Positions 4,326 to 46,930 of a stretch of DNA of 64,000 bases are shown here, piece after piece. Both the position numbers and the translations under genes were made by a program. The notes under the pieces were generated by a model, which saw only the letters and a program-made list of their open reading frames with translations, searched no databases and was not told the DNA's origin. Every line of letters starts with the position of its first letter. Position 1 is the stretch's first letter. The stretch is from the NCBI GenBank assembly GCA_000002435.2, contig CM018791.1; one strand, given 5' to 3'. This stretch comes from Giardia intestinalis. Its lineage: Eukaryota.

Positions 4326-4351
4326 ACAGCATTACAGGGCCAGTTCACAGA

Positions 4352-5290: not shown

Positions 5291-5301
5291 TTTAATAGAA
5301 A
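5291..5301. promoter_or_regulatory. 11-bp bidirectional initiator between two divergent start codons
   Basis: 5288..5304 reads CATtttaatagaaaATG. The two start codons on opposite strands are separated by only tttaatagaaa. The arms are near-mirror (cattttaa / ttaaaatg on the other strand). Confidence 0.5.
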
Positions 5302-5838
5302 ATGCCTCCAGCCTCCACAAAGAAGCCAGCCGCGAAGAAGGAAGAACAGAGAGTCGAGGGGCATGGAAAGTTCTGGTTTCCAAATGGTGACATTTATATA
5401 GGGGATTATTACGAGGAAGGACCCATCAGAAAACGCCACGGAAAGGGTCGGTACACTATGCATTGCCAAGAGGACATGGAAGACCCAGAGGTTCCCGAAG
5501 AGATTCGCTCCCAGGACATCCCTGCGCGGCTCCCACAGGACATAGTTGCTCTGGACGGGACGTGGGATGCAGATGCGTTTATTGAAGGAACGGTGCGCTT
5601 TGCCAGTGGCGCATTCTACACTGGAAAGATAGATAGAGAAGGATTTTATGTCAGCGGTGGCCGGTATACTTGGCCGGATGGGAGCTGGTATGAGGGAGAC
5701 ATCTCCCGCAACATACTCCATGGCCACGGGAAGTACTATTCTTCTCACACAGATACAGTGACAGAGGGTGCCTTCCGGAATAATCACGGACCAGGCCTTG
5801 ATGAGCGCTATGCAAGCCTCAATCCATGCCAACCTTAA
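5302..5838 (+). CDS. MORN-repeat protein (178 aa)
   Basis: ATG at 5302 after tttaatagaaa. Repeated MORN-like units are present: YIGDYYEEGPIRKRHGKGRY, YTGKIDREGFYVSGGRYTW, YEGDISRNILHGHGKYY (Y-x-G-x...G-x-G-x-Y pattern). The N-terminus is a basic, Lys-rich stretch. Confidence 0.6.
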   Translation: MPPASTKKPAAKKEEQRVEGHGKFWFPNGDIYIGDYYEEGPIRKRHGKGRYTMHCQEDMEDPEVPEEIRSQDIPARLPQDIVALDGTWDADAFIEGTVRFASGAFYTGKIDREGFYVSGGRYTWPDGSWYEGDISRNILHGHGKYYSSHTDTVTEGAFRNNHGPGLDERYASLNPCQP

Positions 5839-5845
5839 ATGTAAA

Positions 5846-5852
5846 AGTGAAT
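5846..5852 (+). promoter_or_regulatory. Putative poly(A) signal AGTGAAT 8 nt after the MORN gene stop
   Basis: TAAatgtaaaAGTGAATaacgaaaaagc. The giant gene's ATG is at 5888. Confidence 0.45.
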
Positions 5853-5887
5853 AACGAAAAAGCTTGCCAGCTAAGGCCGACTACGCG

Positions 5888-8800
5888 ATGATAGAGGGAA
5901 TTATCGCCTATTTGCAAGGCCTTGTCGACACAGACGAAGACAAGGCGTATCTTGTGAATTACTTTTCGGCCAACGAGTTCCAGTCTCTACTTTCTGGAGC
6001 GACGACCCATACTGTAATAAAACTCACTAATTTCCCGGGAATCGATTTATTTCTACAGAACATCAAGGGCTACCAGTTGTTGTTGTCCTCTTATAAAGGC
6101 GACGCCCGCTATCTACTACTTTTGTTCCATAGCGGCAAGGTCACACACTTTTCCGAGTTCACTCTTTCAACGGTTCACCTACTATTGGATCAGCTCCCTC
6201 TGTCTACGTTTCAATATCTAGACACTATTGCGAGAATCCGATTTCTGCAACAACTGGCTTCCTCATATAACGTAGCATTGAACATTTTCCCCAGCTATCT
6301 TACGCCCCTGTTTATTGAGACTTTTCATAGCACTGTGCTCCTCTTTCTGCGTTACTATCCTTGCGATCCTAAATCTATTTCGGGAAAGGCAGAGGCATTG
6401 CAGGACATCGGTATTAGCCAGCTTACAGTCGAGGGACTGGAGCAAAGCATGGCAGACATTCGTAACCTTGTTGCCGGTACAAGTGAGGCAAAGGCGTCTT
6501 CTCCAGAACCTTTGCAAGTTTCTCTTGGAACGCACCGCGAAGTAGTTCTACTTCTTAGTGTGTACCTTTCTACTGCTCTGGCGTCTTTTCATGCTCTGGC
6601 TTCGGAGATTGCCTACACTTTCTCAACCTATTCACATCTGCCAACGCTTACAGACACACTGTTGTACCTGCACCAGATGATGTCTCGAGTTGCATATGCA
6701 CTGAGCTTCTTAGAGTCCCCTCTCGTTTTAGAACTGCTTCAGTTTGTTCAGTCAGCTCTGGAGGGCGCCAGATTATCTAATCCAAAGCAGCGATCCAAGA
6801 CTCTGACAGATCTCGTCACTGCAGAAAACAATATTATTCTCCATCTGCAGTCGCTGAAGACCGATTTCATCTCCGTCAAGGCCTTACTTCATAGAAACAT
6901 GCGTCTTTTGGATGCTATCGTTCCCTTCATTTCATCTATTCACGACATTCTTTGCCCATTCACTGTACAATTGTCGTGTGAATTGCACATGATATGGCCT
7001 AAGAGAGATACGGTGGTGTCCACAACTTACTTTTACGAACTGCTGCATCAGTTGTTAAATCTTGATTATAAAACCATTCTCCACACAACAGAGACAATGT
7101 ACACTATCGCCAATTCTCTTGATCTTCGTCGGGTGGATGGGAACCCTCTGATTCATGATACTGTCGAGGGTGTGCAGAAAAGACGACCTCACGATCTATC
7201 CCTCTCACCACAGTTTTGTCTTTCCATCATAAAACTATTCGCAAATGACATGGACCTTTGTCTCACAAATCTAATTCTTCTCTTTTGCAATGAGATAATA
7301 GACGGTTCATCCTCAAAAGACGACATGAATACACTTGTATCTGCCCTGTCTTCTCTGGCGTCGTTGACACCAAGTAATGGTCATCGTTTTAGCGCCAGTA
7401 CAACTCTTGACACAGATCTAGATCTTGGCGACCAGTCGAAAGAGCCTGCTGAATCTTCTTCAGGCGTATCTAGAACGGTCGAGGTTCTACAACTCGTACT
7501 TGCTATCACTAAAATTGAGCATAACTCCATGAGAAACTTTGTGTTTATGACAGCTGAACCAGATTTGTTCCAATCCTATATGCAGCCTCCTTTGTCCAAC
7601 AATGGTTCCCATCACGACGGCCCAGACAGTACAGATAGCACAGACAGTATACTTTATGGTCTGCAGATGTCCCACGTGTCCCTTCCCAACCAGTCCTTTT
7701 CGGCATCTGGGTCTGCGTCCACAGAGGCTGTGTTGGGTCATTCACAGAGCCCTCTTTACAGCACCTTAGCAGGACAACTAGCGCCTCAAGGGGCAGACGC
7801 TCTTCATAGATCTGACTGCTTGGCAGCGTGCCGAGCCAAAGAGCCACAGCAACTCACTGCGGATGAGATATTCGATATGAAGGTGGCTGACATACTAGAG
7901 GCACCTATTTACAGGCTGTGCATAACAGAGTTTGCGCCTCGATCTATCGCCTCTCTTTATTTTCTCATTCGGATTGCTCATGCAGCGTACTTCTCTTATT
8001 CGCGGCTCCAGCTCATTTTTGTGCAGCTCTATAGACCTGCTTCTGGTCACAAGGAGACTACTTTTATGCAGGCAGTTCAGCCAGGGTCTTTGCACCTTGA
8101 AGTTACATCCACAGCAGCGTACAAGGCAAACAGCGCGGTTGCGGCAGATATTTGTCTCTATACCATTGCTCTGCGCAACATAGTAGAGGCATCTGGGCCG
8201 ATTGAAATCATTAAGCTGGCTCTCCTTAACTATCATGAGTTCGAAGCCCTTCACCCAAAGGAAGGCAGGCTGTTTCAAACTATTATGAACAGCGATACCT
8301 CTTTCATTCATACTGTTATTTCGTACATCGTACAAAAGTATCTGGTTGACACATCACCAACAGTGGGCCTCTGTGCCTTGTTTGTTGACTCACAAGCCCA
8401 GCAGTTACAATTCTGCAAGGAGATGGAGCTGGCCCGTAGCAAGGTTCTTTCTCTCGACTCATCTTTATGCAGAGAAAAGCCCCTTCAGAGAATCCCAAGT
8501 TCATGTCTCGACAAGTCAGTAGAAGTTCCTAATGGCACTCACTTTGCGCTACTCATGGAACAGATTCTAGAAATGTGCCGTGCACAGCTTATAGAGACCT
8601 TTAAAATCAATTATACCCTTCGTCTGCAGCTGAGCGCGACATCTGCACTCTCTTTTGTGAAGAAAGTCTCGTCATACATTATGTTTATGTTCAAGGGACG
8701 AGCAAGAGAGCTGATTCAATCTTTTTATGACGGAGTGATCAAAGTTGCAGCCGAGACTATTCGGCAGACAGAGGCTTACTTCCATACAGTTTTATGTAAG

Positions 8801-11800
8801 TTTGAGACAAACACATTTGACGAAATACTAGACAATCCCAGGCGCATAACCTTCTTGCCCAAATGGCCACTCTTCATCCGGGGAATCTTGGAAGCTGTGG
8901 CAATCATCAATAGATTCATAACAGCAACGGATCTTTCCATGCATTCGGAGATTCTCACAAACGTTGCCCTTCGAGATGATAAGTTGCGGTACAACATGAA
9001 CAAGTTGGCACTGCTTCATAGCCTAAGCTCAGACATAGGGCTGAAGGCTCTTAAAGCTTGGCTAAAGGATTCATTAGAACACTGTCACCAACTTAAGTGC
9101 TTTGTTCTACGCTTGTCGGAACAGTGTGCGCCATCCATGCTATCATTGTATATGTCGGATACGCTCTTTAATTCTTTAGCAAAGGCCTTACTCAGTCGCG
9201 TGACCGTGACTTATGAAGTTAATGCCCCACAGCATGCTTTGCAATTTGCTTTAGAGCTGGAGCTGCTTGGTCGCTTTGGGATTTTGAGGATTACAGAGCC
9301 TTTTATGTGTCGCTTTCTATTGAAGGAGGATTTTCTTTCGCTAATTGATGTAATCTATACAGAGTTGCAGAATCCCGAGGACCCTCTAGAGACACTACTT
9401 GTTGGAGCTTCGTTCGTGGGAGAGAGTGTCAATACTCCTGAGCACGAGAGACTCTCAGTGGAGTTGCTATCACAATCATTCTCTGGGCCTACCGATTCAA
9501 TCTCTAGCAGTGCCAGTGCTGGAAGCGAACTTCGAAGACCCCTACTCTCCAAGTCTGAACCAGGCCTTGACCATAACTTAGCAGCATTACATGCGTCTTC
9601 ACAGGAGCAAGCAAGACCAAGTAATATCTTATTCGCCAAAGTTTTTATTAGTAACTATGCTTCCATAGTCTCTAGAGTTAAGGTGCTTGTGTCTCTTGTA
9701 CATGAGATTCTTCGCACCCGTAGACGCTATTCGAATATACTATTTGCAAACCCATTTCTCCTATTATTTGCAGGGTCGCATTACATTTTGATAGAAAAGG
9801 AGTTGGAGCTGTTCGCCGCTAAGTTTGATTGGCTTTCCACCGAGTTTCAGGTGACCGCTGAGCGCGTCTACAAGGCCGTCCACAAACTGGACAGCTTTGT
9901 TATTGCCCTTCAGTTCATTATGAAGGGTGTTCTTCGCCCCATTTTTAGAGAGCTTCGCAAACCAGCAGCAATTCAGAGGTCTGGTAATAAGCAATGCTCA
10001 CTTGCAGAACTAGAAACAGGACTCATGAAATATGCCCTTCAGCGAAATCTCTTCGTAGATGCTTCTGTCAATCGTCTTATTGACGCTATCAACCGATGCC
10101 AATCGATTCACGATGAATATTATCCATCTGGAAAGCTAGCTCTACACTACTATTCTCTCTTTGTCTACATTCTAGGTCCACTTAGACAGAGCCAAGTACT
10201 AGACCGAGCCGGAATAACCGACAGCGAAGCAAGAACCATGTTTTCTAATGCACAGAGCTCGCTTCAAGAAGTATACAAGCAAGCTGTTGTTCATCCAACG
10301 GAAGTCCTTACCATTTGTCGCCATGTGCAGATCATGCTTCACGAGGAGCTGTATGCGGTTGTAAAGACCCAGATTTCTCAGGCACTCTTATACCATATTG
10401 AAAAGCTCTCATCTTCGCTGTTACACGTCATTATAAATCCACAGACGGGGCCTGTCATTTTGTTGACGTTAAACAGGACTGCTTCAACATTTACCACCAG
10501 CCCCGATTATACACTGCTGCCAATAATCATATACACTATTATATCTAGCCTTAAAGTTATCCTGAGCTCGGCGATTCATTCTGCGTGCAGCCGAGTGAGA
10601 GCAAATCTGAGCTTGCCAGGGATGGCGGGGGCCTACAAATCGGTAGAGTCAAATCCACTCATTATGCGTTATGAACCTGAGTCCAAAAATCCCTTTGATA
10701 TCTGCAATATAGATGATGATCCTCTTGTGCGTGCCGTCAAACTGGAACACATGTCTCCAGCACCCCACTTAAGATCGAAGTCTGTCACGCCTCTGTCCCG
10801 CTCCAGAGAGCTTCGTGAACAGCTCCTGACATCCCCCTGTCCACGGTCTTTGAGTCAATCGATTGCACGCAGATCTGCTATGTTCGAAGAACTGGCCATC
10901 CTGAGCGCCATACAACACGAGACCGATATTGGGGATAATTCGATAAGTCTTTTGCAAACGTATACCAAAGTAGATAGCGTCATAGTCGAGCAGAATATCG
11001 ACTATGTCGAACTATTAGGTGTGTCCCGAGACACGTATGAGCTTTCGCAAGCCTTGCGAATATATGGCACCTTTCATGAGCTATTGATCTTCGTCAAGAA
11101 GCTTATTCGGTCCTTTGATGCAGCGTCTTCGTCGTTCTCAGTCGCACAAAAGACGTGTCAGCAACAGCTTCTTGCTGGGGCTACTGATGCGACACAAGGT
11201 AACTATCTGGAGGCATATCATGAGATGATTCGGGCAGCTTCACTGTCTAACCGAACCATCGGCACACTGATGGAGGCGCATCCTTTGACTACTTTCTACG
11301 CCAAGAATCCTGTCGGCTCCGTGGTTAAGATAAAAGCCTTACATAACTTCCAGGACACCGGCTACCTATTTAGCCGTCTGTCTCTTCTGGAGAACGACCT
11401 GCACTTGACACTGCAAGCAATAACTCTTCTTGACGTTCTCAGCATTGAGCTGATCAAGCTGAGCGATGCAGCTGCTGGCGTGCTCGACAGCAGAGACGCA
11501 ATCCAGATGATCAAGCATGACCTGGATACCAAGCGGCTCTCGGAGGCCCACAGCTTTCGCCTGAAGCTGATGCTCTTTGTAGAGACGCTCTATGATGTAT
11601 TCAAGCGGCTGTCTCCGGAGCTTGTTCTCAAAATAGAACAGGACGTCTCGTTTGACTACCTTTCTCGCGTGCTTCACGGTATAAAGACCTTTGAAATCCT
11701 CAATAATATAGTTCTTGACTTTGTGCAGGTCTTAGAGCATCTCTTGGAATTCATTCCAGAGCGTGCTTATTATCACGAGAGGCTAGAGCTGCTCTTTCCT

Positions 11801-14800
11801 TTGGATGACATGTTTATCGGAAATATTAATCTTCTCTCTGTTAACATTACTAAGGTAACGAACGATGTGCGAACATTTATTAAAGAAAAGTACCCAAAGT
11901 TCACAGAGTCCATAATTACGCAAATAAAGTACAGCTACGGGGACTGCCAACTACTAAGAAACTATCTTACGGAAGCATCTCCGTGCTCAAATGTTTTCAA
12001 ATCGTTTGGAGAACTGTGGGGACAACGATACCTGGTCCAGCTAAAGCCGTACCTACTTTCCAATATTACTGAGTTTACGTGGGGGAGCACCAATCTGTAT
12101 CGGCAGATGTCTGACTATAACCCCGACGTTCCGTCATGTGACGAGTCCACCAGTTTATTCAATAGTTCTGGCAGCGAGTGCGAAGATAATTGTGACATAG
12201 AGGGGAATGGCTCACGGCAAACACTTATTCACGGATCAGGCAACACCGTGGATGCCGCGACTTCTAGTATCTTGCCATCGACCAAATTCTCTTCGCGCAC
12301 AACGTTTCTAGATGAGGATTCAACAAAGTTGCTGTACAAGCGTGGAAGACACGAGCTCTCCTTGCGCAAAGCTCCTCAGCGATTCCGCGGAGTGTCTCCG
12401 GCTCAACGAGATCCGGAAGAAAGCTACTCGGACACATTTAAGCATGACTTTGAACCACTGGATGCGGCAACAGATGTGCAACCTTACAACTTCTTAAGCA
12501 TAAATATTCGATGCATGCTCGCTGACATCCATAATGTGCACACAAAGGCGCTCAGCGCAGAGTTGATCCACCAGTTCAGGCACGCATTGTTTTCATGTAT
12601 CAAGCCGTTAGGAGAAGAGACCTACTATATTGTAAGCAACGTGTTCAAAGAGGCTCTATGCCTGCCTCAGTTTACAGAAATATGCGTGACTGACACTGAT
12701 ATCGCAAGCATTCTTCCCTCTTCAGAGAACCCCGTCCAGGGTTTATCGCGTAGCAGTCTTAGCCTTCTTCTCAGAAATGAGATCACACACGCTCTCGCAG
12801 ACAGAAGCCTGGGCTCCGCTCTAGGAGGTTCTTCAGATGCCACCGCTTCTAGCCGCCCCACAAAGCCGCTGTGGGTAAGGTTGGTATCGTTCCACACCTT
12901 TCCTAAGGATGACACACGTTTCCTGAGCTCTATTGACTACGATAAATATGTTTATTGCATACAACTTAATGACTCTGATGCCATTCCAACAAACGAGTCT
13001 ATTCAGAAATTTCTCGAGACATACGTGGTATTGCGGAGTTCACCTAATAAGAAAGCGAACCGCATACGGCTCAATAATGTCACCACTATCTCTGAAAGTC
13101 TCTTGTTAATGAATTCTTCAGGCGAATCACACTCTTCAGACAGCAATGACACAGACGATGTGGTGGATCAAGAGCCATATACACAACTATATAAGCTGGC
13201 TATTTGCAATGATGGATCAGCTTGTGCTTCATCGGAGAAGGATGCACACCACAAGGAGACTATTCTGCAGGAACATGGTCTGCACACGATCCCCACCGTC
13301 TTCGGTTCCTACTCTCTTCGCGGATTTATAATTGTCGTCTGGGAGATCACCCAAGTTAATACGCGAGAATATCGCCACCCACCTTTTCTATCCTTTACCA
13401 TGGCGAAGAAGCTCAAGGAGCGACTCTTCGAGAGCATTTTACAATCTAATATTCTCATCCTCCAGCTCAATGAAAAGCTGGAGACATGCACGAAGATTGC
13501 TACCGCGGTTAAAGTTCACGGCTGTCTGGAATTCCTTTCGAAGATACCGGCAGACCAGTATCGCCGCATCCGCGCGGATATCTCGTGCACAAAAGGATTG
13601 CTTGTGCTTTTCACAAGGTTCATCAATCTCATTCTGATCCTCTATAGTTGTTCCTGGAAGATTCTCACCGCAGAAGTAGACTTTTCACTCACTACTCCTG
13701 AAGGACTGATGGCTATAGGAGAGGGTGTATCTCCAGCCTATGAGCAACTCAGAGAGATAGGATCGTCTATCCCAGGGAAGCTCAGTAACCAGATAGCGTC
13801 CATGTCGGCGCTTATGACTGCTATCTACTCGTTGTGGACAGATTATTCTGTTCTCAAAAGGGCCGTGCATGTTCTGCAGACCACCAAATCCAGAATAGAG
13901 GGAATCTCTACATATGATATGACACCCACCGTAGAGCAAGACTCTGTTTTCCTCAATGACTTCTACATCCAAATCCTCACGAACGAGCTTCTGCACAGCA
14001 ACCCTAGTCTGATCAGAAACTCGGGAGAACGCGGGAAATTTACTGCTGGCGGTGTGGAGGGCCTTGATTGTCAACTTCAGGAGAAGATTGATGGAACTTT
14101 TCGAGGAAAGGTGATGATTGGAAAATTTCTATTGACATATCTGCAGCTTTTCTTCTCTTATGCCATGACTATCTCTCTCATGCCATTCCGGCACGAGATT
14201 TCTCACAGGTATTACGAAGTTGCCGGGGAGCTTCTCAGTCTATGCTGCCTGTATAGGGACTTCTTTATACCGCCCCTCAGCACCATGCTGTCCTCTAGAG
14301 TTAAAATCGATCTTTTTACTGAATTGTGCACCACTTGCCTGGAGCCAGCAGATAGTCTAGAAGCACTACCCCTTGGGTGCTATGTTGACACCCTGTTTAC
14401 CCACGAGAACATTGAGTATATTGATAGATACACCTCTGAGGCAAAAGAAACCACCGCTGTGCTGCTCGACTATCATGCACTGCTAACTGAGCATAAGGCC
14501 GTGCTCTCCATTGCGACGTCTAACTATTGGTGCTTCTTCAATGGATTCGAAAATTCTGTGCTTACGCCCATATCTTGCCTCATACTGCTTAGGGAAGAAA
14601 AGGTTCAACATCTTTGCAATCTGATTCTCAAAGTCAAGCATCGTTTGCAGTCCATTGTAACCCGCTTTAACCGCTTCAGGTCGCTCCTCTGCACATCACC
14701 CGAATATCGGTCGCTCCTCGATGTTTATACCAGAACGAATCTGCTGCTGAAACTCCTATCTCTGATGAAGAAATCTGGCCATCAAATCGAGAGCGTGCTC

Positions 14801-20800: not shown

Positions 20801-23800
20801 TACCCTGGCAGCAGTGCTTTTTCATTAGATATAGATACTCTCATTACTTGTCTGCCAATTGTTATTTATACTCGTGAAAAGGCAGTCTGGCCGATTTCCA
20901 TACAGGCTCTAACGATCCCTGATGCACTCAACTCTCTAGTGTCTCTTCGACTCTTTCTCACGGATTCCTTACATAATCGGATTTATGGAGAGCAGAATAT
21001 AGAACGGGGACTTTCGAGAGCTCAGCAAGAAGTCTCTCGTGCCGTCACACGACTAGCAAACTCACACCACGTACCCATAATATTACCTCCTCAACCAGGC
21101 ACATTTATCGCTGCACGTGGTGGTGCTCTCCAAGCAGGCAATGAGTCACAAACAAATGAAGGCGCGCATAAAGCAGGCAGTTTAAGTATGAACGTCTATG
21201 GCGGCTCTGTTGTTACCTCGACGGCTGCAGCATCTCATCTCTTTCATGCGCTGACATGCTATGATACTACGAAGAACACATTCCCGTATCTATTTGAGGT
21301 CTACAATGAAACTGTTCTTCAGCACGTATCAGATTGCCTTTGGGCCTATCTCATCCTTCCTCTTCTTCACGAGATATTCATTGTTAACAATCGCAAAAAG
21401 CATTCTAATGATTCCAGCGATATGAGACTGTTTCAAACGCGACACTATGAGTCTTTCGTCGATTACCTTCGGCTGGAATTAGCGGAAATAATCACGCATT
21501 ACACAAATTCTCTCTCTAAGTACCATGTTCTACATGAGAACAAAAGCACATTTATTCTTGTCAATCTCAACACAATTTTTTGCCTGCATCAATCCGAACT
21601 TTACGAACTGTCTAAGATTACACCAAGCACCACTAAACACGAGGCAACCCAGATGTTGCGGGCAGCCCGCTCAGCAATCTCGTCAAGTGACGAGCGGAGA
21701 GCAGACATACTGAAGAATGTTGTGTTCTCGGTTGCATGCTCTGTTTTCAGATATATGTGCACCAAGGCTGCAGTTTCTCCAAAGACATTCGACAAGCTTA
21801 TCAATTACATGCAAATCATTCCTAGCTACAGCATAAACGATCCACTGGAGAAGGTTCTTGCAGAAGCCAATTTAGCCACGAACTACTCTGATTTGCCGGA
21901 AAAATCTGTAACAAAACTCACTTATAATCCCATTAACGATGCATTTAATATGCGTGTAATGGCTCATGTCAACAGAGCGTTGCGCGAACTTTTCCTTTTA
22001 TATCGAGTGGATCCCCCTGCGTCCACAATTAAACAAGATGAAGCCAAGCAGCTGTCTGGCGCAGCTTCCAAAGAGAAAGAGACACGATTTTCTCCATCAG
22101 ATGATTCCCTAGATGACATCCACAAGTTTGAGGACACAGACCTTGAGGTGCACACCAAGGACAGGCGTCCTTCCTATAAGGTTGACTATGAATTAAAGTA
22201 TGAAGTTTCAAACTTCTTTTATGGAGGGCTTTATGGACCCTATCCGTTGATCAATTCTCGCTTCTCACCAGAGCTTCTTTCTTTTGTCCCGTACTGCTTT
22301 CAGGACACGCTGCGGGATGGACATGTCACTAGCTTACCCAAGGAAGCACTTCCTCATGCGCATTTACTAAACAGGATGAAGCGCGCTAAAGGGAGCAGCA
22401 TCTTTCTTGAGAGCTATAAGGCTCCGATTCCTCAATTTCTTAGTTGTGCCTCTGTACTACGTAGTAGAGTGTTGAGCTTCGTGCTGAGCACCACTCAAGC
22501 TTCTTCCGATCCTGTTTTGTTATGTGCTGGAGACTACGAGGCCGATTTGCTTTATCACTGTGGGATAACATCCATCCACCCCGATGAAAACATCTATGGG
22601 TCAACGTCTCATAGTTATCTGATTATGTCCATCGTCGATGAAGACATTCTTTACTCTATTGTCGACTTGACCGAGCACATTTGCAGTCATCACAGTTATG
22701 TCTCATTAATAGGACTTATCATTGTCGTTTCTCAGCAGTTTGTGCAAACAGCTAGGGATTTGCAGTACCTCTACTCGCTCGCACAAACCCTGCCGTCCAT
22801 GATTCATCCCAGAGTCCTCTTGCTTGTTTTTCTCCCGCATAATTTCCTGGAAGCTACACCCTGTCTCCCTTATCGCTACGAAGCGCTGTATGTCCATCCG
22901 CCAACAAGTACCCAGTTGCTTACTGTTGCATCTTACGATCTAATCTATTCAATCGCAGAATCTGACATCGCTTCACGAGACAGTAGGCTTCCACTGAAAT
23001 TCCTGGCAACCTTTGAACCACGTCTCAAGTACGCCAGTTTGCTCACAAAGCAATTACAGGCTGTATTCAGAGACTCCCTTCTCACGCAAAAGGTCCTTGC
23101 GATGGCCTCGAAGCTGATGCTAGATGGGACATTCTTGAATGCACATTCGTTAAGGGTGCCCTCGTGCAGCAATCTTTTGGGGGATATCTTTCTTTTGTCT
23201 GTTAACATAGTCCTGGTGATGCAGAACTATGGTGAAATAGAAGATGCTTCGTTCAAGGAGGCACTACTAGCTGTTATTTATCGATATGTCGTTTCGCCGT
23301 CCCCACGTGACGTTCTGCCGTACTACGATTTTGATGCAGTACCACACACCCTCACTACCATGCCTGCAGATTTTGTCGAGTACGCTGTCAGACTCCTACA
23401 ACCCGGACGGATGTTGCTGGAGTTCTTGCTCCTGGGTGCAGAGAGCTTGGAAAGCGAGTATATCTATACCGCAGTTCTTTCGTCTCTGCGAAGCACTCAG
23501 GTTGCAATTGTAACAGAGGCACAGACCAATGAGTTAGTGGCATCAAACACTCACCTTCTAAGGGTCGGAAAAAGGCCACTTGTCCCTGTATATGCTTCAG
23601 CATCAGCTACATCTGACCTACCAAATTATGGTCAAGCTCTTGTACGTGGTGGCGACCTGCTTCTCTGTAGTGAGGCATATAACGCATCATCCTTCGCTGT
23701 TCACCTGGAGCACTTTGTCTCAACCCGCTGCGTCCGCATGATCCGGCTTTATGCCACGGACAGCGGATCATATATGAAAAGCCTCAAATATGGCCTTCAC

Positions 23801-26800
23801 CTGTTTATGCTGCGCCAAAACTTGCACACGTCCCAACAGGCTGTGATAGTAGATTGCATAAACGATAAGTCTGCAATGGAGATAATTGAGCGAGCAATTT
23901 ACCTCTGTGTGTACACCAAGTCAGTGGTGGCAGATAAGGACAAGCCAATCAAGCATATTGTGCTGCTACTTTCGAGCCAGCAAGCAACTCCTATGCATAC
24001 CTCTTCTGGGCTCGGAGAGAGCGCATCCTGTATTGAGGTCCTAAACACATCTGCCCGTGGAGAAGCTGCTTCTAATGATAGGGATCTCAGGAACCTAATT
24101 TTAGCACTAGCTACGCCGTATGCTGAAATATTCAGCGCCTTGCCTCAAAGGCTCCGAACAGACTTTATACAACGAACTGGTCTTCATAGTTCGCGAGACA
24201 TCCATAATCTGCTATTGTCTGTATTCGTCCTAGTTGTAACGACCCCGGCAACCCTGGACTTTTCTCTCTCTCAAACCAATGTCGTCCCCTTTGGTCTTGA
24301 AGATTATCCCAAAGCCTTAGGGATCAACACACGATTGTCCCTCCAGCTTTCCTTTAATTTGGTAGACAAGCCTACTGAGAAGTTACAGATTAGACAGAGG
24401 GCGTCTGAAGTCTCAGAGTACACTGAGGCTCGCCTTGGGAACAACGGACATGCAGGCTACTTTGCATTCTTATTAGCAGGGTCACATGATAATATAGCGC
24501 TTTGTGCAAGCATCCTAGCCACGGAATTCCCGGTAATGATTCAGTGGGCACAGACCCGTCTGGGTGCCGTCTTTGCAGGGCGAAGCCACGGGTTCCTGCT
24601 GAAGGATCATCTACCAGTTATCAAGGTCACAAAGGGCTCACTGGAGGAGTACCTGTCATCACTTATGTCCACCAATGTTATTGACATAGCCACGTTCTTC
24701 TATGAGGCCCTTAGGCTGACCGGCTCTCCTCAGCCCACAGCATACAGTATCGTGATATTTACGCATTTCGTTCTTCAGGAATTTAAATACAGGCTTGCAC
24801 GCTTCGTTGACTCACTTGATCAAATATGCTGTAATCTGCAAACGGCCCAAAATCTTAGCTCAGCCTCTACTAAAGAACTTAACAGCGTAAAGAAGCAGTC
24901 CGACATTGAAACACAGCAAGTCGAGGAGATTGCAAAAGAGCTGAAGCAAGCAGACACAGACATCACACAAATGATCAAGAGGCTGGTGTATAATCAGCGG
25001 CTCTTTAAAAACCGCCAGCGCAAAATAGCCACCTTGACTGCTGAAAGTAACAGATTGCAGAAGCTTATCAGTCAGGCCCTTCCTAGACTGAAGACTGCAG
25101 TTAATGCGGTGAATAAGCTGACAAAAGATGTTGTGGGCGGAATAAAGGTCCTGAAGCAGCCGCCCTCAAGCCTCCGAAGAATAATTGACTGCCTAGCTAT
25201 ATTGATGCATGCGCCCCTATCCAAAATATCTCACGACATACTCCAGGTGACTCTTCCCCTAGTCTCACCTGACTTGATGGACGACGAGCTCGCCCTGCAG
25301 CGCATATACGATCGTGAATCGAACAAAGCATCGCGTCCGCTGCTCTTCTTTATCGGCCAGGAAGTTATTAGTCAGGTTCGCCGAAGAGCTCCTGTCCCAG
25401 ACGACTCAGAGCTGGATGATATGCAGGTAGCAATCAACGCAGATATCGCGATGATGGAAAACCTTAGATTGGTTAGCTACAGCGACTATACCAAGCAGGT
25501 TGAAGATGAGTGCTGCAGAAAGGCTTCGGACGCGCCTCAAGACGCTTCCTCTCAGCTCAGAGCTGCCAAGGACGCCTTTGTGGTAAAAGACCTCGGTAAG
25601 CTGCTCTCCGACGTTCATGGAGCTTCTCTACTTGGGAGCACATTTCATGGGTCGGCTTTTAAGAAGCAGATGTCTCTTGAACTCAGCTTTGCGGAGCGGC
25701 CTGATATTTATATAGGCAGGAAGATTACCGATCCTTATCTAACGGCAAACGATCTTCGCATGAACATCCCAAAGATTCTATCGAATGTTGACATGCTCCG
25801 GAGTGCGTCACACATCTTCAGCTTCTCTGAGCTAGGTAACGATATTTTGCATGTCCTACACCCGTTTAACTACGAAGAAATATACAATTACGTACTTGCC
25901 CACGGAGCATTTGTTAGCGACCTTACCAGGCCTATTGAACTAGAGACCAAGGGGAGACGGTCAGAGAAGAAATCAACTTACAACCTATATACCACATACC
26001 GATATTCGTGCATGGTAAGGGACCAGTGTGTCATCAGCTCTGCTCCTGTTCTTGTGAACTTCCACGATGGAACAACACTAGAAGAGAGCAGTGCATCATC
26101 CAATGCCATAAACGTGACATTCTATGCGCCCAAGGATTCGTTTGATGAGCTACAATACTTCCTGCAAGCAACAGCCTTTTCTGAGCGGATTTGCAGGTTT
26201 GATCCGACGGTTCTAACAGACGAACAGATAGAGCTGCTGGAACCGTACCTGGCACAGCCTGATTTTAATTACTATTCTGCAGGGAAGATTTCTCAACTTT
26301 GCCAAAGCATGATCGAGTGGCTCAATGCAGTCGTTTCTTACTACAAGTTGGCGTGTGCGCTCCACCCTGTTTATCAGCGCAACGAGTTTGTGCGTTCATT
26401 CATCAACAACTTTACTGCAGAATCAGACAATCTCGCTGTAATGATCCATCAAGATGAGGAAGCAATTGTCGCGATGCGCAACAGAAAAAAAGAGCTTGTC
26501 AAGGAGCAAGATAGGCTAGGGGCTCGCGCCAAAGATACCCTAACTCACGAGCGATATTCGCAACATATCAAATCAGAAATGACGGAAAAGTATGACACAT
26601 GGCTGACAAACTTTCAAACAATGTGCGGTGAACTGAGCAGTCTACTGATCGATGCTGTTGTGTACTCCACTTTTGTCTGTGGGGGGTTCACGGTATGCAG
26701 TTCGTTCAAGCGTGCACTGCAGGAGTCTCGAGCGTCTCAATTTTGCAAGGCCACAGTTCCTTTATCCGACACCGAAAAGCATCTTTTCTCTCAATACGGA

Positions 26801-29800
26801 AATACGATTGTATATGGGGATACTCAGCATGGAACAGAAACCTCTATGACACCGCACGCTCACAAGAAGTCGACCATCAACTATCTGCTAAACATAAGCA
26901 ATGCAGCGCAGTCATTCGTAAGTCATTACATAGACAGCCAAAGACATACAAAAGCACGGCCATGCGATCCGGAGCAGTTTTCGCTAGATGTCGCAGATGC
27001 TTCAGACGATGATGCCTTAGACAAGTTCAGTGAGCAGGTGGCAGAGAGTGACTCCGCTGCAGTCTTGGCTCAGGGGCTTCACACTGACTATGCTATATCC
27101 CTGACGACGGATGTGCTTGCTATCGCTCACAGTACCGGAATCTCTCTACCGAAGACGTATCATATTTTCGTCGAAGGGGATATGTTTACCTCCTTTGGCC
27201 TAACATATGGATTTGTAACACAAATAAGGCCTCTTACAGACATCTTTCTCAAGCAAGACTTCTATCCTCGAGTTGATGTCACAGATAGCTCCGACGGCTA
27301 TCTGCACACAGGTCTTCTTGGGCTTATTTTGCACTATCCCCTTGCATTCTATGCCATGGGAATAACAAAAGAAGAAATTCTGCAGCTATCGGCACTCTTC
27401 ACATGCCCATTGGTCCCCCTGGTTTGGGATCCTCGTGGACACTTTGAAGAATTCCTTATCAACCTCAAGGAATATAGCCACATATGTAGCCAGAAAATAC
27501 GAAAACTGGTGAACTCCAGCTACCTCTTGTCTCCTGACCAGCTTCGTCAGATTTACCACCGGCTAGAGGAACCAGAACTAGTAGTGTACGATTCCTTACC
27601 TGAATTCCTTGATTCCTTGTTATCAGACTGTCCGTCAAATAGGGCCATAGGACACAGCTACTCCAACCTCACGGTTGCATACATTACGCCAGATGATTTG
27701 TTAGGGAAGACTCAACACAGCAATATGACACTATCATCAGTTCTTTCACAGCTTGTCATGACATCGGCTATACGGGGTGTACGCCACCGAGTGATCTTAG
27801 TCCTCAGAGGTCATAGTCTGCATGCTATCCGCGACCAAGCACTTGATTCCTTTATCAGTGCAGACGCCAGTGGTATTTTCGCACACTACGAATTTTCTTA
27901 TCAACTGCACTACCAACTTGCTCGCTCAGTGGGACTCTCGTGTAAGGCCCCCTGCCTTTACCGGAACATCTTAACCGATGCTAGTGCAGATCTTCTAGAA
28001 GCATTTCTGGATTATGTATTCTGCTTTACTCTATACATGCGAGCTGATAGCACAGTCAATAAAGAGGATTACATCGCGGTGCTTGTTTCTGCCAAGCAGA
28101 ACGTTCTACTGGCCGGACAAAAAGTGGAGTCCATTCTTGACAACGTGGAAGTCGTCATCCGGAACTTTGCTAACATAGAACATACCTATAACATAATTCA
28201 GCAGGTCCTCTGCGGGCATTCATTCACCGTTAAGCTTTCTGATGGAGGGGACATCGGTGTTGACAACCTAACCGAAAGGTCTCTGTCAGAGAGTGGTCTG
28301 GAGGTGACGCAGATAAGCGTTCCGCTCTCAAATCGCTATCAGGAGACTACAGTGACACGAGAAATGCTTTCAAAGTTGGCATTTCTCTATTCATTATTCT
28401 ACGACAAATCTACAACGGACTTGATCAATTACCAGCTATACAAAACAGTCTCTCTACATATTATGCAGGACCTGCTAGCGCCCCTGAACCTACGCACATA
28501 CTTCCTCGTAATCTCGCTCTACGGTGCCCACTACCAATACAAAAGTGTGCACCCGGGTATTATCAATCTTCTCATCGTATTGCTCTGTGAGCTGGACAAA
28601 CGTACAGACATATTTTTTGACCCTTTACAATCATCCAGCGGTACAGCCCACCTCGAGCTAAGATCCTCTGGGCCAAGTATGTCAACGTCAGCAACTGAGA
28701 GCGTTATAACTAGCAGTGGAGAGTCATCGGACAGTGAAGTCTTGGCTGATAAGTTGTACTTCGTCACAGGCAGGCTCCTCACAATGTTATCAAGCTTGCC
28801 GTTACTTGACGCACTAAGACACGAATTCAAGCTTACTGGCACCAACATTAACTTTTGGAAGTGGTACATCACCTACTTTGTGGGCAAATGCAGCAGTGCA
28901 CAGGCATCTGAGGGCGCATCTAAGGGGTATCTTGATCGTGACAAAATCCTCTATCCAAGCAGCTATCAAGACGTGGTTGCAAAGATCGCTGTTAGCTTTG
29001 GTGGTGGTGCCGTTCTAAGGGAATCGCTTGCAGACTATATAGATATTATAACCTTCTGCTTATTTAGTATCGGCGTCAAAAATTACGAAGAGATCTGCAA
29101 TCAGAGAGTGTCTAATAATAATAATAACAACAAGAGTCAGTTCAGTCCTCGCCTAAATTCGACACAGGGGGTCTTCATGAATTGGCTGATACACTCTTTG
29201 GACATTTTGTCTAGGCAACTCACGGACAATGGCTGTGTAAAGAACTTCCTCTATAAACGGAAGTCGCCAATTGGTCTTTTCCTCAACGACTCGTATGGAG
29301 TGGGGATAGAGGCGACTATCTATAGAGAGATTAACTACTTCTTCAAGCGCAACAACATGCTGAGACTGACACAGAAGCGGCATGCTTCAAGTGGCTCTCA
29401 TGTTACTGAGCAGGCATACATTAGTATCGACGAAACAAATCAGGATCCTCACCAGTGCAACATTTCCACATTTGTGCTTCCATCTTCATTGCACATAGGC
29501 AGGACCTTCTCTCTTGAGACGCTAGTCCATATATGGAAGTGTCTATCGATCTATGAATACCGGACCTCTGTAGACCAGTCTGTCTTTGATTGCTTTGTGC
29601 AGGCCAACGAAGCTACAAGGAGGACATATTCCTTGACAGAAATCACACTTCTTCCTCGCAGCTGGCCAGCTGCCGTGCGAAACGAAATTATGAGCCGCAT
29701 CAGTGACTATTCCACAGGTAAGTGCATGACAGGGAAGAGGAGTGCCGGGGAGTCATCTGCAAACAGCGAGAGTATCTGCTACAGAAGCAACGGAAACAAT

Positions 29801-30373: not shown

Positions 30374-30381
30374 AGTAAAAC
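30374..30381 (+). promoter_or_regulatory. Putative poly(A) signal AGTAAAAC immediately after the giant gene stop
   Basis: catgTAAAGTAAAACaaaaacaattttactg. The AdhE ATG is 47 nt downstream. Confidence 0.45.
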
Positions 30382-33094: not shown

Positions 33095-33137
33095 TTAGTA
33101 GGTAAATTGAGTGAGTTTGTCTACCGACCCCGCAAAA

Positions 33138-46440: not shown

Positions 46441-46887
46441 TCACGTTGCGGCCTCAGATGGCGTAAACTTCGTGACTTTCTTGGCGACCTCTGCCTTTAC
46501 CCATTCCAGCGCTTCAAAGGGAGATGCGATCTTTTTCTGGATCTTTGCGTACGAGTCCTGCAGTGGAGGACATATGAACACACGGTACAAGAGAAGCGCA
46601 CACGAAAAGTCATGTTGACCCAACCAGTAGAAGTATAGTGACTTAAACAGTTCATAGTAGGGAACCCATAAGAAAAACTGATCAAGGACATACTCCGCTG
46701 CCATAGAGAGAGCGAAGGCTATCCAGAAGGCACTTGCGTCCTGAATTCTCGCTGCCAGATCCGTGGGCATTTCATCGTCTTCCTGATATTCATTGCACAG
46801 CAGGCGGATGAGACAGTATGACTTGTACGCAGGAACTGCCAGAAAAATTAATCCTCGGACGGCTCTTACGACGGAAGGTAAATCCAT
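46441..46887 (-). CDS. REEP/Yop1/HVA22 (TB2/DP1) family ER membrane-shaping protein (148 aa)
   Basis: Real ATG at c(46885..46887) (MDLPSVV...). The track start at 46989 is upstream and would overlap the divergent gene. Family motifs are present: LIFLAVPAYKSYCLI (cf. YPAYxSxKAI) and WVPYYELFKSLYFYWLGQHDFSCALLLY (cf. WxPFYxxxKxxFxxWLxxPxxxGAxxLY). Confidence 0.55.
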   Translation of the reverse strand: MDLPSVVRAVRGLIFLAVPAYKSYCLIRLLCNEYQEDDEMPTDLAARIQDASAFWIAFALSMAAEYVLDQFFLWVPYYELFKSLYFYWLGQHDFSCALLLYRVFICPPLQDSYAKIQKKIASPFEALEWVKAEVAKKVTKFTPSEAAT

Positions 46888-46930
46888 TTTTGTGGTGGAT
46901 TTTAATTTTTCATGTCTACGTATACCATCT
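46888..46930. promoter_or_regulatory. 43-bp divergent intergenic region between REEP-like (-) and hypothetical (+) genes
   Basis: The sequence ttttgtggtggattttaatttttcatgtctacgtataccatct lies between c(46885..46887) ATG and the 46931 ATG. Confidence 0.4.

What the first reader, a model, noticed from the sequence alone, without database searches (positions are those of the whole stretch)
5888..30373. 24.5-kb single-exon gene encoding an ~8,160-aa dynein heavy chain-like protein that lacks intact P-loops
It is one of the largest uninterrupted ORFs one can expect in any genome. It carries motif-level similarity to the dynein heavy chain motor: a TPLT(R)KxYR block, a stalk coiled coil ending in LKQPPSSLRRIIDCLAILM, and an MTBD/CC2 return strand (LCQSMIEWLNAV... 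and TWLTNFQTMCGELSSLLIDAVVYSTFVCGGF). It is almost twice the length of canonical dyneins, and I could not find any GxxxxGK[ST] Walker A. That would make it a catalytically dead pseudo-dynein with a large extra N-terminal region of about 4,000 aa. Such proteins (cf. DNHD1-type) are poorly understood, and this one would be exceptionally large.
Basis: partly seen in the sequence, partly recalled or inferred. Interest (0 to 1): 0.65.

Follow-up and report, generated by a model that had tools for sequence, protein, structure and literature searches.

The report
Giant dead dynein relic in Giardia
Giardia keeps, under strong purifying selection, an 8,161-residue protein whose only recognisable part is a dynein microtubule-binding stalk with a 303-residue insertion at its tip. 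It looks like a motor protein that lost its ATP-binding loops and probably now serves as a static microtubule-binding scaffold.

Summary
The ORF is real. It runs from ATG 5888 to TAA 30373 on the + strand (8,161 aa) in Giardia intestinalis WB, directly upstream of ADHE. Independent assemblies reproduce it. Syntenic orthologues of 8,167 aa (assemblage B) and 8,149 aa (E) are intact, and dN/dS is 0.09-0.12 in the sampled N- and C-terminal parts.

Only aa ~6283-6962 is recognisably dynein: CC1, the MTBD and CC2 (PDB phmmer E=1e-10; own profile of 12 dyneins, 69.6 bits). The stalk length is canonical, with CC2 exactly 94 residues between the two invariant Trp. A conserved 303-aa insertion sits at the flap of the MTBD.

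No tail, linker or AAA module, and no Walker A, is detectable by Pfam, PDB, custom HMMs or hhalign.

The nearest relatives are P-loop-less, stalk-bearing giants from other Fornicata (Hexamita, Chilomastix, Aduncisulcus, Carpediemonas). The Carpediemonas protein still has an outer-arm gamma/DNAH5-type tail.

Best reading: a hyper-divergent, non-motor derivative of a dynein heavy chain that acts as an ATP-independent microtubule-binding scaffold. The extra length seems spread along the chain, not concentrated in a 4,000-aa N-terminal addition. It is a new variant of the known "non-motile dynein" kind (DNHD1, DNAHX).

The parts
5888..30373 (+). Complete ORF of the giant protein (8,161 aa plus TAA stop)
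   Evidence: define the ORF. An 8,161-residue product is called in independent Logan assemblies. Orthologues are 8,167 aa (assemblage B) and 8,149 aa (assemblage E). dN/dS is 0.086-0.118 over the C-terminal 3,315 codons and 0.106 over the N-terminal 2,814 codons.
30374..30379 (+). AGTAAA, the Giardia-type polyadenylation signal, directly after the stop codon
   Evidence: Read from the sequence. That this hexamer is the Giardia poly(A) signal is from established knowledge, not tested here.
11282..11881 (+). aa 1799-1998: most conserved block of the N-terminal part; helix-rich composition, function unknown
   Evidence: 96% identity between assemblages A and E, with dN/dS 0.03. It has the lowest Ser/Thr/Pro/Gly/Asn/Gln content of the protein. 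No family match.
13445..13681 (+). aa 2520-2598: best non-stalk match to the Hexamita inflata homologue (its aa 1789-1868)
   Evidence: phmmer i-E 7e-4 with Z=1. It is part of a collinear chain of weak matches, permutation p=0.004.
Present, but not supported as AAA1.
   Evidence: The motif is located. The full-length and AAA1-specific dynein profiles give no hit here. No P-loop follows it.
19685..20887 (+). aa ~4600-5000: compositionally biased stretch that evolves fast where orthologue data exist (aa 4846 onward); probably a disordered expansion
   Evidence: 45% Ser/Thr/Pro/Gly/Asn/Gln and 24% hydrophobic residues. In aa 4846-5127, A-B identity is 58-63% and dN/dS is 0.19-0.29, the highest in the sampled part.
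24734..24775 (+). aa 6283-6296: PTAYSIVIFTHF, matching the TPxSYLxFLxxF motif of the last AAA4 small-domain helix that runs into CC1
   Evidence: Sequence comparison. The motif lies 143 residues before the MTBD 'PP', against 141 in canonical dyneins. The AF2 helix starts at aa 6283.
24776..25159 (+). aa 6297-6424: stalk coiled-coil strand CC1
   Evidence: PDB phmmer. Own dynein HMM positions 2964-3090, i-E 1e-10. hhalign probability 91%. AF2 pLDDT is 75-97.
25160..25225 (+). aa 6425-6446: first MTBD helix, PPSSLRRIIDCLAILM, carrying the [KR]R.xDC signature of outer-arm gamma/DNAH5-type dyneins
25226..26134 (+). aa 6447-6749: 303-aa insertion at the flap position of the MTBD, bracketed by beta strands HDILQVTLP and AINVTFYAP
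   Evidence: The insertion falls between dynein HMM positions 3090 and 3091. AF2 predicts strands at aa 6451-6457 and 6740-6746. A-B identity is 79-87%. It is partly shared with Hexamita, and smaller insertions occupy the same site in Chilomastix and Carpediemonas. It has no family or PDB match.
26135..26377 (+). aa 6750-6830: remaining MTBD helices (DEQIELLEPYLAQPDFNY...; LCQSMIEWLNAVVSYY)
   Evidence: Own HMM i-E 2.4e-24, 69.6 bits. hhalign probability 97.8%. A-B identity is 87%. AF2 pLDDT is 86-97.
26378..26602 (+). aa 6831-6905: stalk coiled-coil strand CC2. The span from the invariant Trp 6811 to the invariant Trp 6905 is 94 residues, exactly as in canonical dyneins.
26603..26773 (+). aa 6906-6962: first helix of the AAA5 large domain (LTNFQTMCGELSSLLIDAVVYSTFVCGGF matching ...L.GD.LL.AAF..Y.GPF)
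   Evidence: The alignments to DNAH1 and to the dynein HMM extend to aa 6962.
27413..27481 (+). aa 7176-7198: VPLVWDPRGHFEEFL, a candidate remnant of the AAA5 'PLLIDPQGQAxxWI' motif
   Evidence: It is the top hhalign hit of the post-stalk region and is collinear with dynein, but E=0.38, so it is not significant alone. It is invariant in assemblages A, B and E.

Best explanation
The ORF encodes a real, selectively maintained 8,161-aa protein that descends from a dynein heavy chain. The ancestor was probably an outer-arm gamma (Chlamydomonas naming)/DNAH5-type paralogue that lost its ATPase sites early in the Fornicata lineage.

Only the microtubule-binding stalk has stayed under dynein-like constraint. 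CC1 and CC2 keep canonical lengths, and the MTBD is the best conserved part of the protein. Every P-loop is gone, and the tail, linker and AAA ring have diverged beyond recognition and expanded by about 3,300 residues.

The protein therefore most likely does not move. It would work as an ATP-independent microtubule-binding arm on a very large scaffold. The stalk holds the MTBD at the canonical distance from the body. The conserved 303-aa domain grown out of the flap could supply a second contact, either to the neighbouring protofilament or to a partner. In axonemal dyneins the flap itself, or LC1 bound to it, is that second contact (PMC10205576, PMC8500839). The rest of the chain would anchor the protein to an axonemal or other Giardia microtubule structure.

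Shown: the ORF, its conservation, the stalk homology and geometry, the flap insertion, and the absence of P-loops and of detectable AAA, linker or tail similarity.

Inferred: descent of the whole chain from a dynein, microtubule binding, lack of motility, the scaffold or cross-linker role, and the cellular location.
For: Real gene:
- The ORF is intact in independent assemblies and in assemblages A, B and E (8,161, 8,167 and 8,149 aa).
- dN/dS is 0.09-0.12, like the neighbouring genes at 0.03-0.10.

Dynein stalk:
- PDB phmmer hits are dyneins only, with best E=1e-10.
- There are 126 representative-library hits, all on the stalk, and 74 of the 76 tested carry PF12777.
- Own profile: 69.6 bits (i-E 2.4e-24) and 24.4 bits (i-E 1e-10). 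hhalign probabilities are 97.8% and 91.4%.
- AF2 with a stalk MSA gives pLDDT 80-97 for CC1, the MTBD and CC2.

Canonical geometry:
- The Trp-to-Trp span of CC2 is 94 residues, as in 6 canonical dyneins.
- CC1 is 143 residues against 141.

Similarity continues into the ring on both sides of the stalk:
- PTAYSIVIFTHF matches the AAA4S motif TPKSYLSFLSGF.
- The alignment runs into the first AAA5 helix.
- There is a collinear PLVWDPRGH match to PLLIDPQGQ.

The stalk, including the insertion, is the most conserved sampled region (79-87% A-B identity against a mean of 73%).

No Walker A.

Bridging relatives:
- The Walker-A-less stalk proteins among the long hits are all from Fornicata.
- Carpediemonas KAG9393405.1 keeps DHC_N1 (E=6e-68), DHC_N2 and MT but shows no AAA hit. 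Its tail is of outer-arm gamma/DNAH5 type (7kzm_C, E=9e-61).
- The Hexamita homologue has a canonical overall size (4,871 aa) and shows weak collinearity with the Giardia protein along its length (p=0.004).
- The MTBD signature [KR]R.xDC plus the flap hairpin is shared with outer-arm gamma/DNAH5-class dyneins.
Against: - Outside aa ~6283-6962 there is no statistically significant similarity to any dynein. Descent of the other ~7,500 residues from tail, linker and AAA ring rests on flank motifs, weak collinearity with Hexamita, and analogy with the Carpediemonas protein.
- Orthology among the five Fornicata proteins is not demonstrated. The neighbour-joining tree of the stalk was saturated and unresolved, with 0% bootstrap for the group. 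Apart from one short Aduncisulcus-Carpediemonas match, pairwise similarity among them is confined to the stalk. Collinearity tests other than Giardia-Hexamita were not significant.
- The p=0.004 collinearity result would be only marginal after correction for the 13 pairs later tested.
- AF2 without an alignment failed for the post-stalk region (pLDDT 36), so nothing is known about an AAA-like fold.
- No expression, localisation or binding data were found.
- Loss of the Walker A motif does not formally exclude nucleotide binding by other means.
- aa 2817-4845 could not be compared between assemblages.
Confidence: 0.6

Rival explanations
1. Stalk transplant: the protein is an unrelated giant, lineage-specific cytoskeletal protein. 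It acquired, or retains, only a dynein stalk/MTBD cassette, and the remaining ~7,500 residues never were a dynein tail, linker or AAA ring.
For: No tail, linker or AAA similarity was found by Pfam, PDB, custom HMMs, block HMMs or hhalign. The protein is nearly twice the length of any canonical dynein. The N-terminal 2,500 aa have no relative in the word-indexed database.
Against: - The similarity does not stop at the coiled coil. It runs into the AAA4S helix and the first AAA5 helix at the canonical distances.
- The Hexamita homologue has dynein-like overall dimensions, with the stalk at the canonical relative position.
- Carpediemonas has a P-loop-less protein with a bona fide dynein tail and linker plus the same kind of stalk.
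- No free-standing dynein stalk cassette was seen among the long hits. All are either canonical dyneins or these Fornicata proteins.
Confidence: 0.15
2. Regulatory or assembly partner like DNAHX or DNHD1: a non-motile heavy chain that pairs with an active axonemal dynein heavy chain. It would lock, inhibit, transport or dock that partner, rather than acting as a structural cross-link in its own right.
For: It shares three features with the non-motile dynein described in the DNAHX preprint (10.1101/2025.01.18.633724): degenerate ATP sites, insertions in the stalk/MTBD, and an outer-arm-type ancestry. The Carpediemonas relative keeps an outer-arm gamma-type tail, the part that mediates heavy-chain pairing.
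Against: In Giardia no tail similarity remains. The MTBD is the best conserved part of the protein. In DNAHX the stalk insertions vary in length between species and are thought to abolish microtubule binding, whereas here the insertion is itself conserved. According to that preprint, DNAHX is absent from protists.
Confidence: 0.2
3. Still an active motor that binds and hydrolyses ATP through non-canonical sites that simple motif and profile searches miss.
For: The stalk length and the CC1/CC2 pairing needed for ring-to-MTBD communication are precisely conserved.
Against: No Walker A, strict or relaxed, is present in assemblages A, B or E or in Hexamita. The only near-motif next to the stalk, GAVFAGRS at aa 6226, loses its first Gly in B and E. 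No AAA profile matches at all.
Confidence: 0.04
4. Artefact or pseudogene: a chance or mis-assembled ORF, or a decaying gene.
For: One Logan assembly (SRR13990248) has a 1-bp deletion in a G5 run.
Against: The sequence is identical in contigs from 20 or more runs. The ORFs are intact and syntenic in three assemblages at dS 0.6-1.9, with dN/dS about 0.1. A poly(A) signal follows the stop codon.
Confidence: 0.01

Closest known systems
Hexamita inflata 'conserved hypothetical protein' (UniRef name 'Dynein heavy chain'), 4,871 aa (P0034)
   Same: It is the best non-Giardia hit (E=3.8e-19). It has the same MTBD signature, shares part of the flap insertion, has no Walker A and no Pfam family, and is weakly collinear along the chain.
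   Different: It is 3,290 residues shorter. Its flap insertion is about 160 aa rather than 303 aa, and its CC2 span is 97 rather than 94 residues. Identity outside the stalk is not significant.
Carpediemonas membranifera KAG9393405.1 'Dynein heavy chain N-terminal region 1', 4,562 aa (P0051); also Aduncisulcus GKT34396.1 and a Chilomastix cuspidata transcript
   Same: They are Fornicata proteins with a dynein stalk, no Walker A and no Pfam AAA hit. They carry the same [KR]R.xDC MTBD helix, and Carpediemonas and Chilomastix have an insertion at the same flap site. CC2 is 94 residues in Carpediemonas and Aduncisulcus.
   Different: Carpediemonas still has a recognisable outer-arm gamma-type tail and linker; Giardia has neither. 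Orthology with the Giardia protein is not shown.
Outer-arm dynein gamma heavy chain (Chlamydomonas) / DNAH5 class
   Same: The MTBD helix signature and a flap hairpin at the site of the insertion are shared. The gamma MTBD is among the best PDB matches (6l4p_B E=4.8e-9, 7kzm_C E=1.1e-7).
   Different: Canonical members are about 4,500 aa, carry Walker A motifs (2-3 in the outer-arm-type sequences checked), a full set of Pfam dynein domains and a short flap that binds LC1. None of this is detectable here except the stalk.
DNHD1 and DNAHX (degenerate or non-motile animal dynein heavy chains)
   Same: They are heavy chains with a poorly conserved AAA1 site and insertions through the motor, including the stalk/MTBD. 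They are thought to be non-motile (10.1101/2025.01.18.633724).
   Different: They keep a recognisable six-AAA motor (DNAHX was solved by cryo-EM as a dynein motor). They are around dynein size (DNHD1 about 4,750 aa, from memory). Their MTBD insertions are disordered and variable. DNAHX is reported to be absent from protists. No specific relationship to the Giardia protein was found.

Membership tests
Dynein heavy chain | Antiparallel coiled-coil stalk (CC1/CC2) with a globular microtubule-binding domain at its tip | tested here: met
   PDB phmmer E=1e-10. 126 representative hits, all on the stalk. Own HMM scores of 24.4 and 69.6 bits. hhalign probabilities of 91% and 98%. AF2 pLDDT of 80-97 for these parts. 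The Pfam PF12777 match itself is below its gathering score (16.5 against 24 bits).
Dynein heavy chain | Canonical stalk length and register between the ring and the MTBD | tested here: met
   The span between the two invariant Trp is 94 residues, as in 6 canonical dyneins. The AAA4S motif to the MTBD 'PP' is 143 residues against 141.
Dynein heavy chain | Six concatenated AAA+ modules recognisable by sequence (Pfam AAA_6/7/8/9, AAA_5, lids, Dynein_heavy/Dynein_C) | tested here: not met
   No Pfam hit, even with 1,000-aa pieces at E<=10. Nothing with the full-length or block HMMs at --max. Nothing with PDB phmmer. hhalign is not significant.
Dynein heavy chain | AAA+ ring fold, independent of sequence | tested here: inconclusive
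   AF2 without an alignment gave pLDDT 36 for aa 6962-8161, and the fold search on it was meaningless. Only flank motifs are seen: PTAY...F (AAA4S), the first AAA5 helix, and PLVWDPRGH.
Dynein heavy chain | Walker A (GPAGTGKT) in AAA1, plus further P-loops in AAA2-4 | tested here: not met
   No G....GK[ST] or [AG]....GK[STQ] in the whole protein or in the sampled B and E orthologue parts. Canonical dyneins in the same test have 2-4.
Dynein heavy chain | Tail (DHC_N1) and linker (DHC_N2) | tested here: not met
   No hit with Pfam, the own HMM, the linker block HMM or PDB. No homologue of aa 1-2500 in the word-indexed database.
Non-motile / degenerate dynein heavy chains (DNHD1, DNAHX) | Loss of the catalytic AAA1 motifs, and insertions in the stalk/MTBD | tested here: met
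   No Walker A. A 303-aa insertion in the MTBD. The family features are taken from 10.1101/2025.01.18.633724.
Non-motile / degenerate dynein heavy chains (DNHD1, DNAHX) | Common descent with DNHD1 or DNAHX | not tested
   No DNHD1 or DNAHX sequence was compared. The preprint reports DNAHX to be absent from protists. The resemblance is functional and architectural only.
Outer-arm dynein gamma / DNAH5 class | Class-specific MTBD helix ([KR]R.xDC) and flap hairpin | tested here: met
   Motif survey of all hits. A signature-bearing canonical dynein, P0038, is of outer-arm gamma type (7kzm_C, 1,193 bits).
Outer-arm dynein gamma / DNAH5 class | Phylogenetic placement inside the class, and a class-specific tail | tested here: inconclusive
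   The neighbour-joining tree of the stalk is saturated and unresolved. No tail similarity remains in Giardia. The tail of the possibly related Carpediemonas protein is of this class.

The most novel reading that the evidence does not exclude
Fornicata carry a lineage of 'fossil' dynein heavy chains in which the motor was abandoned and the stalk was kept as a precision microtubule-binding arm. In Giardia this has grown into an 8,161-aa structural protein. Its flap has become a new 300-residue microtubule-lattice-reading or partner-binding domain. The protein would build or cross-link one of Giardia's special microtubule arrays, such as the long cytoplasmic axoneme segments, the ventral disc, the median body or the funis. 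That would be a dynein turned into a static architectural element rather than a regulator of other dyneins.
Probability: 0.3. Interest if true: 0.75.

Novelty: new variant of a known kind. Interest (0 to 1): 0.6.

Why it matters
Non-motile dynein heavy chains (DNHD1, DNAHX) have only recently been taken seriously. This protein would be the most extreme case so far: everything except the stalk has drifted beyond recognition, yet all sampled parts of the 24.5-kb gene are under purifying selection.

It gives a natural experiment on which parts of a dynein are needed for a purely microtubule-binding role. The stalk length is conserved to the residue, and the flap has expanded into a domain.

It points to a possible series of intermediates across Fornicata, from Carpediemonas through Hexamita to Giardia, for studying how a motor is converted into a scaffold.

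It also nominates a concrete, taggable candidate for the unidentified large densities on Giardia microtubule structures. Practically, it shows that Pfam-based dynein inventories miss such proteins.

Tried and rejected
- **Pfam.** Searches on halves and on ten overlapping 1,000-aa pieces gave only a sub-threshold MT hit and coiled-coil noise.
- **PDB sequence searches.** aa 1-4500, 3801-6259, 6951-8161 and the 303-aa insertion gave nothing meaningful at E<=10.
- **Self-comparison.** No internal duplication, so the protein is not two dyneins in tandem.
- **Word-indexed homologue searches.** The C-terminal half returned only one Dysnectes dynein. Hexamita P0034 returned only itself. aa 1-2500 returned nothing, and the aa 1-4500 query timed out. 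The giant itself is not in that collection.
- **AlphaFold2.** The run without an alignment on aa 6962-8161 gave pLDDT 36 and was unusable, and its Foldseek search was meaningless.
- **JGI metagenome scan** with a Giardia + Hexamita MTBD alignment gave no relative.
- **Neighbour-joining tree of the stalk.** Distances are saturated and there is no support for any grouping. An earlier Biopython version timed out.
- **Intermediate-sequence chaining among the five Fornicata proteins.** Apart from one short Aduncisulcus-Carpediemonas match, similarity is confined to the stalk. Collinearity is significant only for Giardia-Hexamita.
- **The TPLT block as AAA1** was rejected.
- **GAVFAGRS (aa 6226) as a degenerate AAA4 P-loop** was rejected. 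It sits in the wrong position, about 70 aa before CC1 instead of about 330. Its first Gly is not conserved in B and E.
- **Literature.** Searches for the accession, the length or a description of this protein found nothing specific. Kollmar 2016 (PMC5100056) mentions an orphan diplomonad dynein whose tail aligns to no class. I could not establish whether that is this gene.


Full report
**Where we are.** The window is from Giardia intestinalis WB (assemblage A). The ORFs at 30428-33094 and 40150-46389 are exact matches to ADHE (XP_001710238 / KAE8303176) and SNF2 (XP_001710245). The ORF at 2328-4325 is the CAF1 ribonuclease XP_001710230 / KAE8303172. The packing of long intron-less ORFs on both strands fits that genome.

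**The observation.**
- The ORF runs from ATG 5888 to TAA 30371-30373, giving 8,161 aa with no internal stop. The nearest upstream in-frame stop is at 5852.
- AGTAAA, the Giardia poly(A) signal (established knowledge), follows the stop directly.
There is no strict or relaxed Walker A.

**Is it a real gene?**
- Logan assemblies of other sequencing runs carry the identical 3' 9.9 kb, and gene callers give an 8,161-residue product there. One contig type occurs in 20 or more samples.
- One run shows a 1-bp deletion in a G5 homopolymer, most simply a read or assembly error.
- Using the ADHE and CAF1 orthologues as handles, I recovered the syntenic gene in assemblage B (8,167 aa) and in assemblage E strain P15 (8,149 aa; ACVC01000106.1, 6239..30688).
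- Nei-Gojobori dN/dS over the last 3,315 codons is 0.086 for A-B (dS 1.94, 73% identity) and 0.118 for A-E (dS 0.62, 86% identity). Over the first 2,814 codons it is 0.106 for A-E.
- The four neighbouring genes give 0.03-0.10.
- So the N- and C-terminal thirds are under ordinary purifying selection. aa 2817-4845 could not be sampled. The artefact and pseudogene readings are excluded.

**What is recognisable.**
- Pfam finds no family above threshold. This holds even when the protein is cut into ten 1,000-aa pieces and E<=10 is allowed. The only dynein signal is PF12777 (MT stalk) at 16.5 bits, below its 24-bit cut-off.
- phmmer against PDB sequences returns 28 chains at E<=0.01. Nearly all are named dynein heavy chains, and the one named otherwise is a 4,730-residue chain. 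The best are DNAH1 (E=1e-10) and the Chlamydomonas outer-arm gamma MTBD (6l4p_B, E=4.8e-9). They align only to aa ~6259-6449 and ~6749-6980.
- An exhaustive HMMER scan of 1.84 billion cluster representatives with aa 5900-7099 gives 126 hits at E<=1e-3, again aligned only to those two stretches. 74 of the 76 short hits carry PF12777.
- A profile I built from 12 canonical full-length dyneins hits aa 6317-6446 (24.4 bits) and aa 6750-6962 (69.6 bits, i-E 2.4e-24). It hits nothing else at --max with domain E<=10.
- Block profiles for the linker and each AAA large domain find nothing.
- hhalign with an A/B/E profile gives 97.8% and 91.4% probability for the stalk and nothing significant elsewhere.
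- PDB phmmer of aa 1-4500, 3801-6259 and 6951-8161 at E<=10 finds no dynein.
- There is no internal duplication.

**Anatomy of the stalk.**
- The two matched stretches abut in the dynein profile (positions 3090/3091). The 303 residues between them (aa 6447-6749) are therefore an insertion inside the MTBD.
- The insertion lies right after the helix PPSSLRRIIDCLAILM. This is the variable 'flap' loop of axonemal dyneins, which is a second microtubule contact in DNAH7 and the LC1-binding element in outer-arm gamma (PMC10205576, PMC8500839).
- AF2 with a 78-row alignment (Giardia, Hexamita and 76 dynein stalk fragments) models three parts at pLDDT 80-97: CC1 as one helix from aa 6283, the MTBD helices, and CC2 as one helix over aa 6803-6951.
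- In that model two beta strands (aa 6451-6457 and 6740-6746) bracket the insertion. The insertion itself and everything beyond aa ~6932 are low confidence.
- Foldseek then returns dynein heavy chains and stalk crystal structures. This is not independent of the alignment used.
- The insertion is as conserved as the MTBD among assemblages (79-87% A-B identity against a mean of 73%), and parts of it align with Hexamita. It behaves like a functional domain, not a spacer. It matches no known family.

**Geometry.**
- From the invariant Trp of the last MTBD helix to the invariant Trp at the stalk base is 94 residues in Giardia. The same count holds in six canonical dyneins of different classes and in the Carpediemonas and Aduncisulcus proteins; Hexamita has 97.
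- From the AAA4S motif TPxSY to the MTBD 'PP' is 141 residues in canonical dyneins and 143 in Giardia. In Giardia the motif reads PTAYSIVIFTHF, against TPKSYLSFLSGF.
- Downstream, the alignment continues into the first AAA5 helix (…LIDAVVYSTFVCGGF).
- The best post-stalk hhalign hit is collinear: VPLVWDPRGHFEEFL against the AAA5 motif PLLIDPQGQAxxWI. It is invariant in A, B and E, but at E=0.38 it is only a hint.
- The stalk therefore sits in remnants of AAA4S and AAA5L rather than being a bare cassette.

**Relatives.**
- After two short Giardia fragments, the best hit is a 4,871-aa Hexamita inflata protein (E=3.8e-19), named 'Dynein heavy chain' by UniRef.
- It has no Pfam family and no Walker A. 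It shares the edges and parts of the flap insertion.
- It gives a collinear chain of weak matches along the Giardia protein: permutation p=0.004 for this first-tested pair, marginal if corrected for the 13 pairs tested later.
- The anchors suggest the Giardia excess of 3,290 residues is spread out. The largest block, about 1,500 aa, lies between aa ~4550 and 6340, which includes a fast-evolving Ser/Thr/Pro-rich stretch.
- Three further long hits without any Walker A come from Chilomastix cuspidata, Aduncisulcus paluster and Carpediemonas membranifera. All are Fornicata, like Giardia and Hexamita.
- The Carpediemonas protein (KAG9393405.1, 4,562 aa) has DHC_N1 (E=6e-68), DHC_N2 and MT but no AAA hit. 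Its tail is of outer-arm gamma/DNAH5 type (7kzm_C, E=9e-61, against E=9e-22 for the beta chain).
- Giardia and three of these proteins (Hexamita, Chilomastix, Carpediemonas) share the MTBD helix signature [KR]R.xDC; Aduncisulcus has APSLVRRTFDC, which the motif survey did not list. Canonical dyneins with the signature, such as P0038, are of outer-arm gamma/DNAH5 type.
- Orthology of the five is not proven. Apart from one short Aduncisulcus-Carpediemonas match, they share only the stalk pairwise, and my distance tree was saturated.

**Interpretation.**
- The most economical reading is a dynein heavy chain that lost ATPase function. The Carpediemonas form shows that such P-loop-less dyneins with an intact tail exist in this lineage. 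In diplomonads everything but the stalk diverged beyond recognition, and Giardia added about 3,300 residues.
- What selection has kept dynein-like is exactly the microtubule-binding arm: its length to the residue, the MTBD, and a new conserved domain at the flap.
- I therefore propose an ATP-independent microtubule-binding or cross-linking scaffold. Microtubule binding, non-motility, the role of the insertion and the cellular site are inferences.
- The rivals are a stalk transplanted into an unrelated giant, a DNAHX-like partner or regulator of active dyneins, and a cryptic active motor. They are weighed in the rival-explanations section.

- The ORF, the stalk motifs and the missing P-loops are right.
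- The TPLT 'AAA1' block is a chance match.
- The 'extra 4,000-aa N-terminus' is not what the Hexamita collinearity suggests.
- 'Dynein motor' is shown only for the stalk and its flanks.
- DNHD1 is an analogue, not a shown relative.

**Novelty.**
- The gene has been in the Giardia genome records since 2007. Its accession is presumably KAE8303175, which I infer from the neighbouring accessions; I did not look it up.
- I found no paper describing it. Kollmar 2016 mentions an orphan diplomonad dynein with an unalignable tail, which may or may not be this gene.
- Degenerate, non-motile dynein heavy chains are a known kind. This is a much more extreme variant, with a new MTBD domain and a possible lineage-wide series of intermediates.

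Noticed in passing
window 5302-5838 (+): A 178-aa ORF with a MORN repeat (PF02493, E=1.9e-7) ends 50 nt before the giant's start codon. It is conserved at the same place in assemblage E (L015 5666-6205). MORN proteins are often cytoskeleton-associated (from memory); a functional link with the giant is possible but was not tested.
   Followed up: partly
window 60000-62000: G+C rises to 0.606, against about 0.46 elsewhere. Three ORFs of more than 300 aa overlap on both strands (60879-61838 -, 60917-61849 +, 60951-63437 +). The 828-aa ORF has no Pfam match.
   Followed up: partly
P0039 (3,309-aa dynein from the representative library): This otherwise canonical dynein seems to carry two intein-like insertions. 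One follows the AAA2 P-loop (GPSGAGK|CLARGTKVLM...LVTHN|T). The other lies inside the conserved RKYxPxGW..PYEF block (GF|CFPETDHQ...IQHN|CIPYEF).
   Followed up: no
L007 (Logan SRR13990248), about 1.2 kb upstream of the giant's stop codon: A single-base deletion in a GGGGG run splits the 3' end of the gene in this one assembly. Eight other contigs are identical to the window. It is probably a sequencing or assembly error.
   Followed up: yes
window 11282-11881 (aa 1799-1998 of the giant): This is the most conserved block of the sampled N-terminal part (96% A-E identity, dN/dS 0.03). It is hydrophobic and charge-rich and has no family match. It could be a key interaction site, or the remnant of the tail-linker junction.
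   Followed up: partly
window 33111-35264, 46793-49003, 49000-50745, 51270-54467, 56730-60569: Several long neighbouring ORFs (581-1,279 aa) have no Pfam family at all. Two of them were compared across assemblages: the 717-aa ORF has orthologues of 707-708 aa, and the 1,058-aa metallo-beta-lactamase-like ORF has orthologues of 1,052-1,058 aa.
   Followed up: partly
Protein collections behind the search tools: The 8,161-aa protein and its full-length Giardia orthologues are absent from the searchable protein collections. Only two short fragments (127 and 69 aa) were found, so proteins of this size may be systematically missed by such searches.
   Followed up: no
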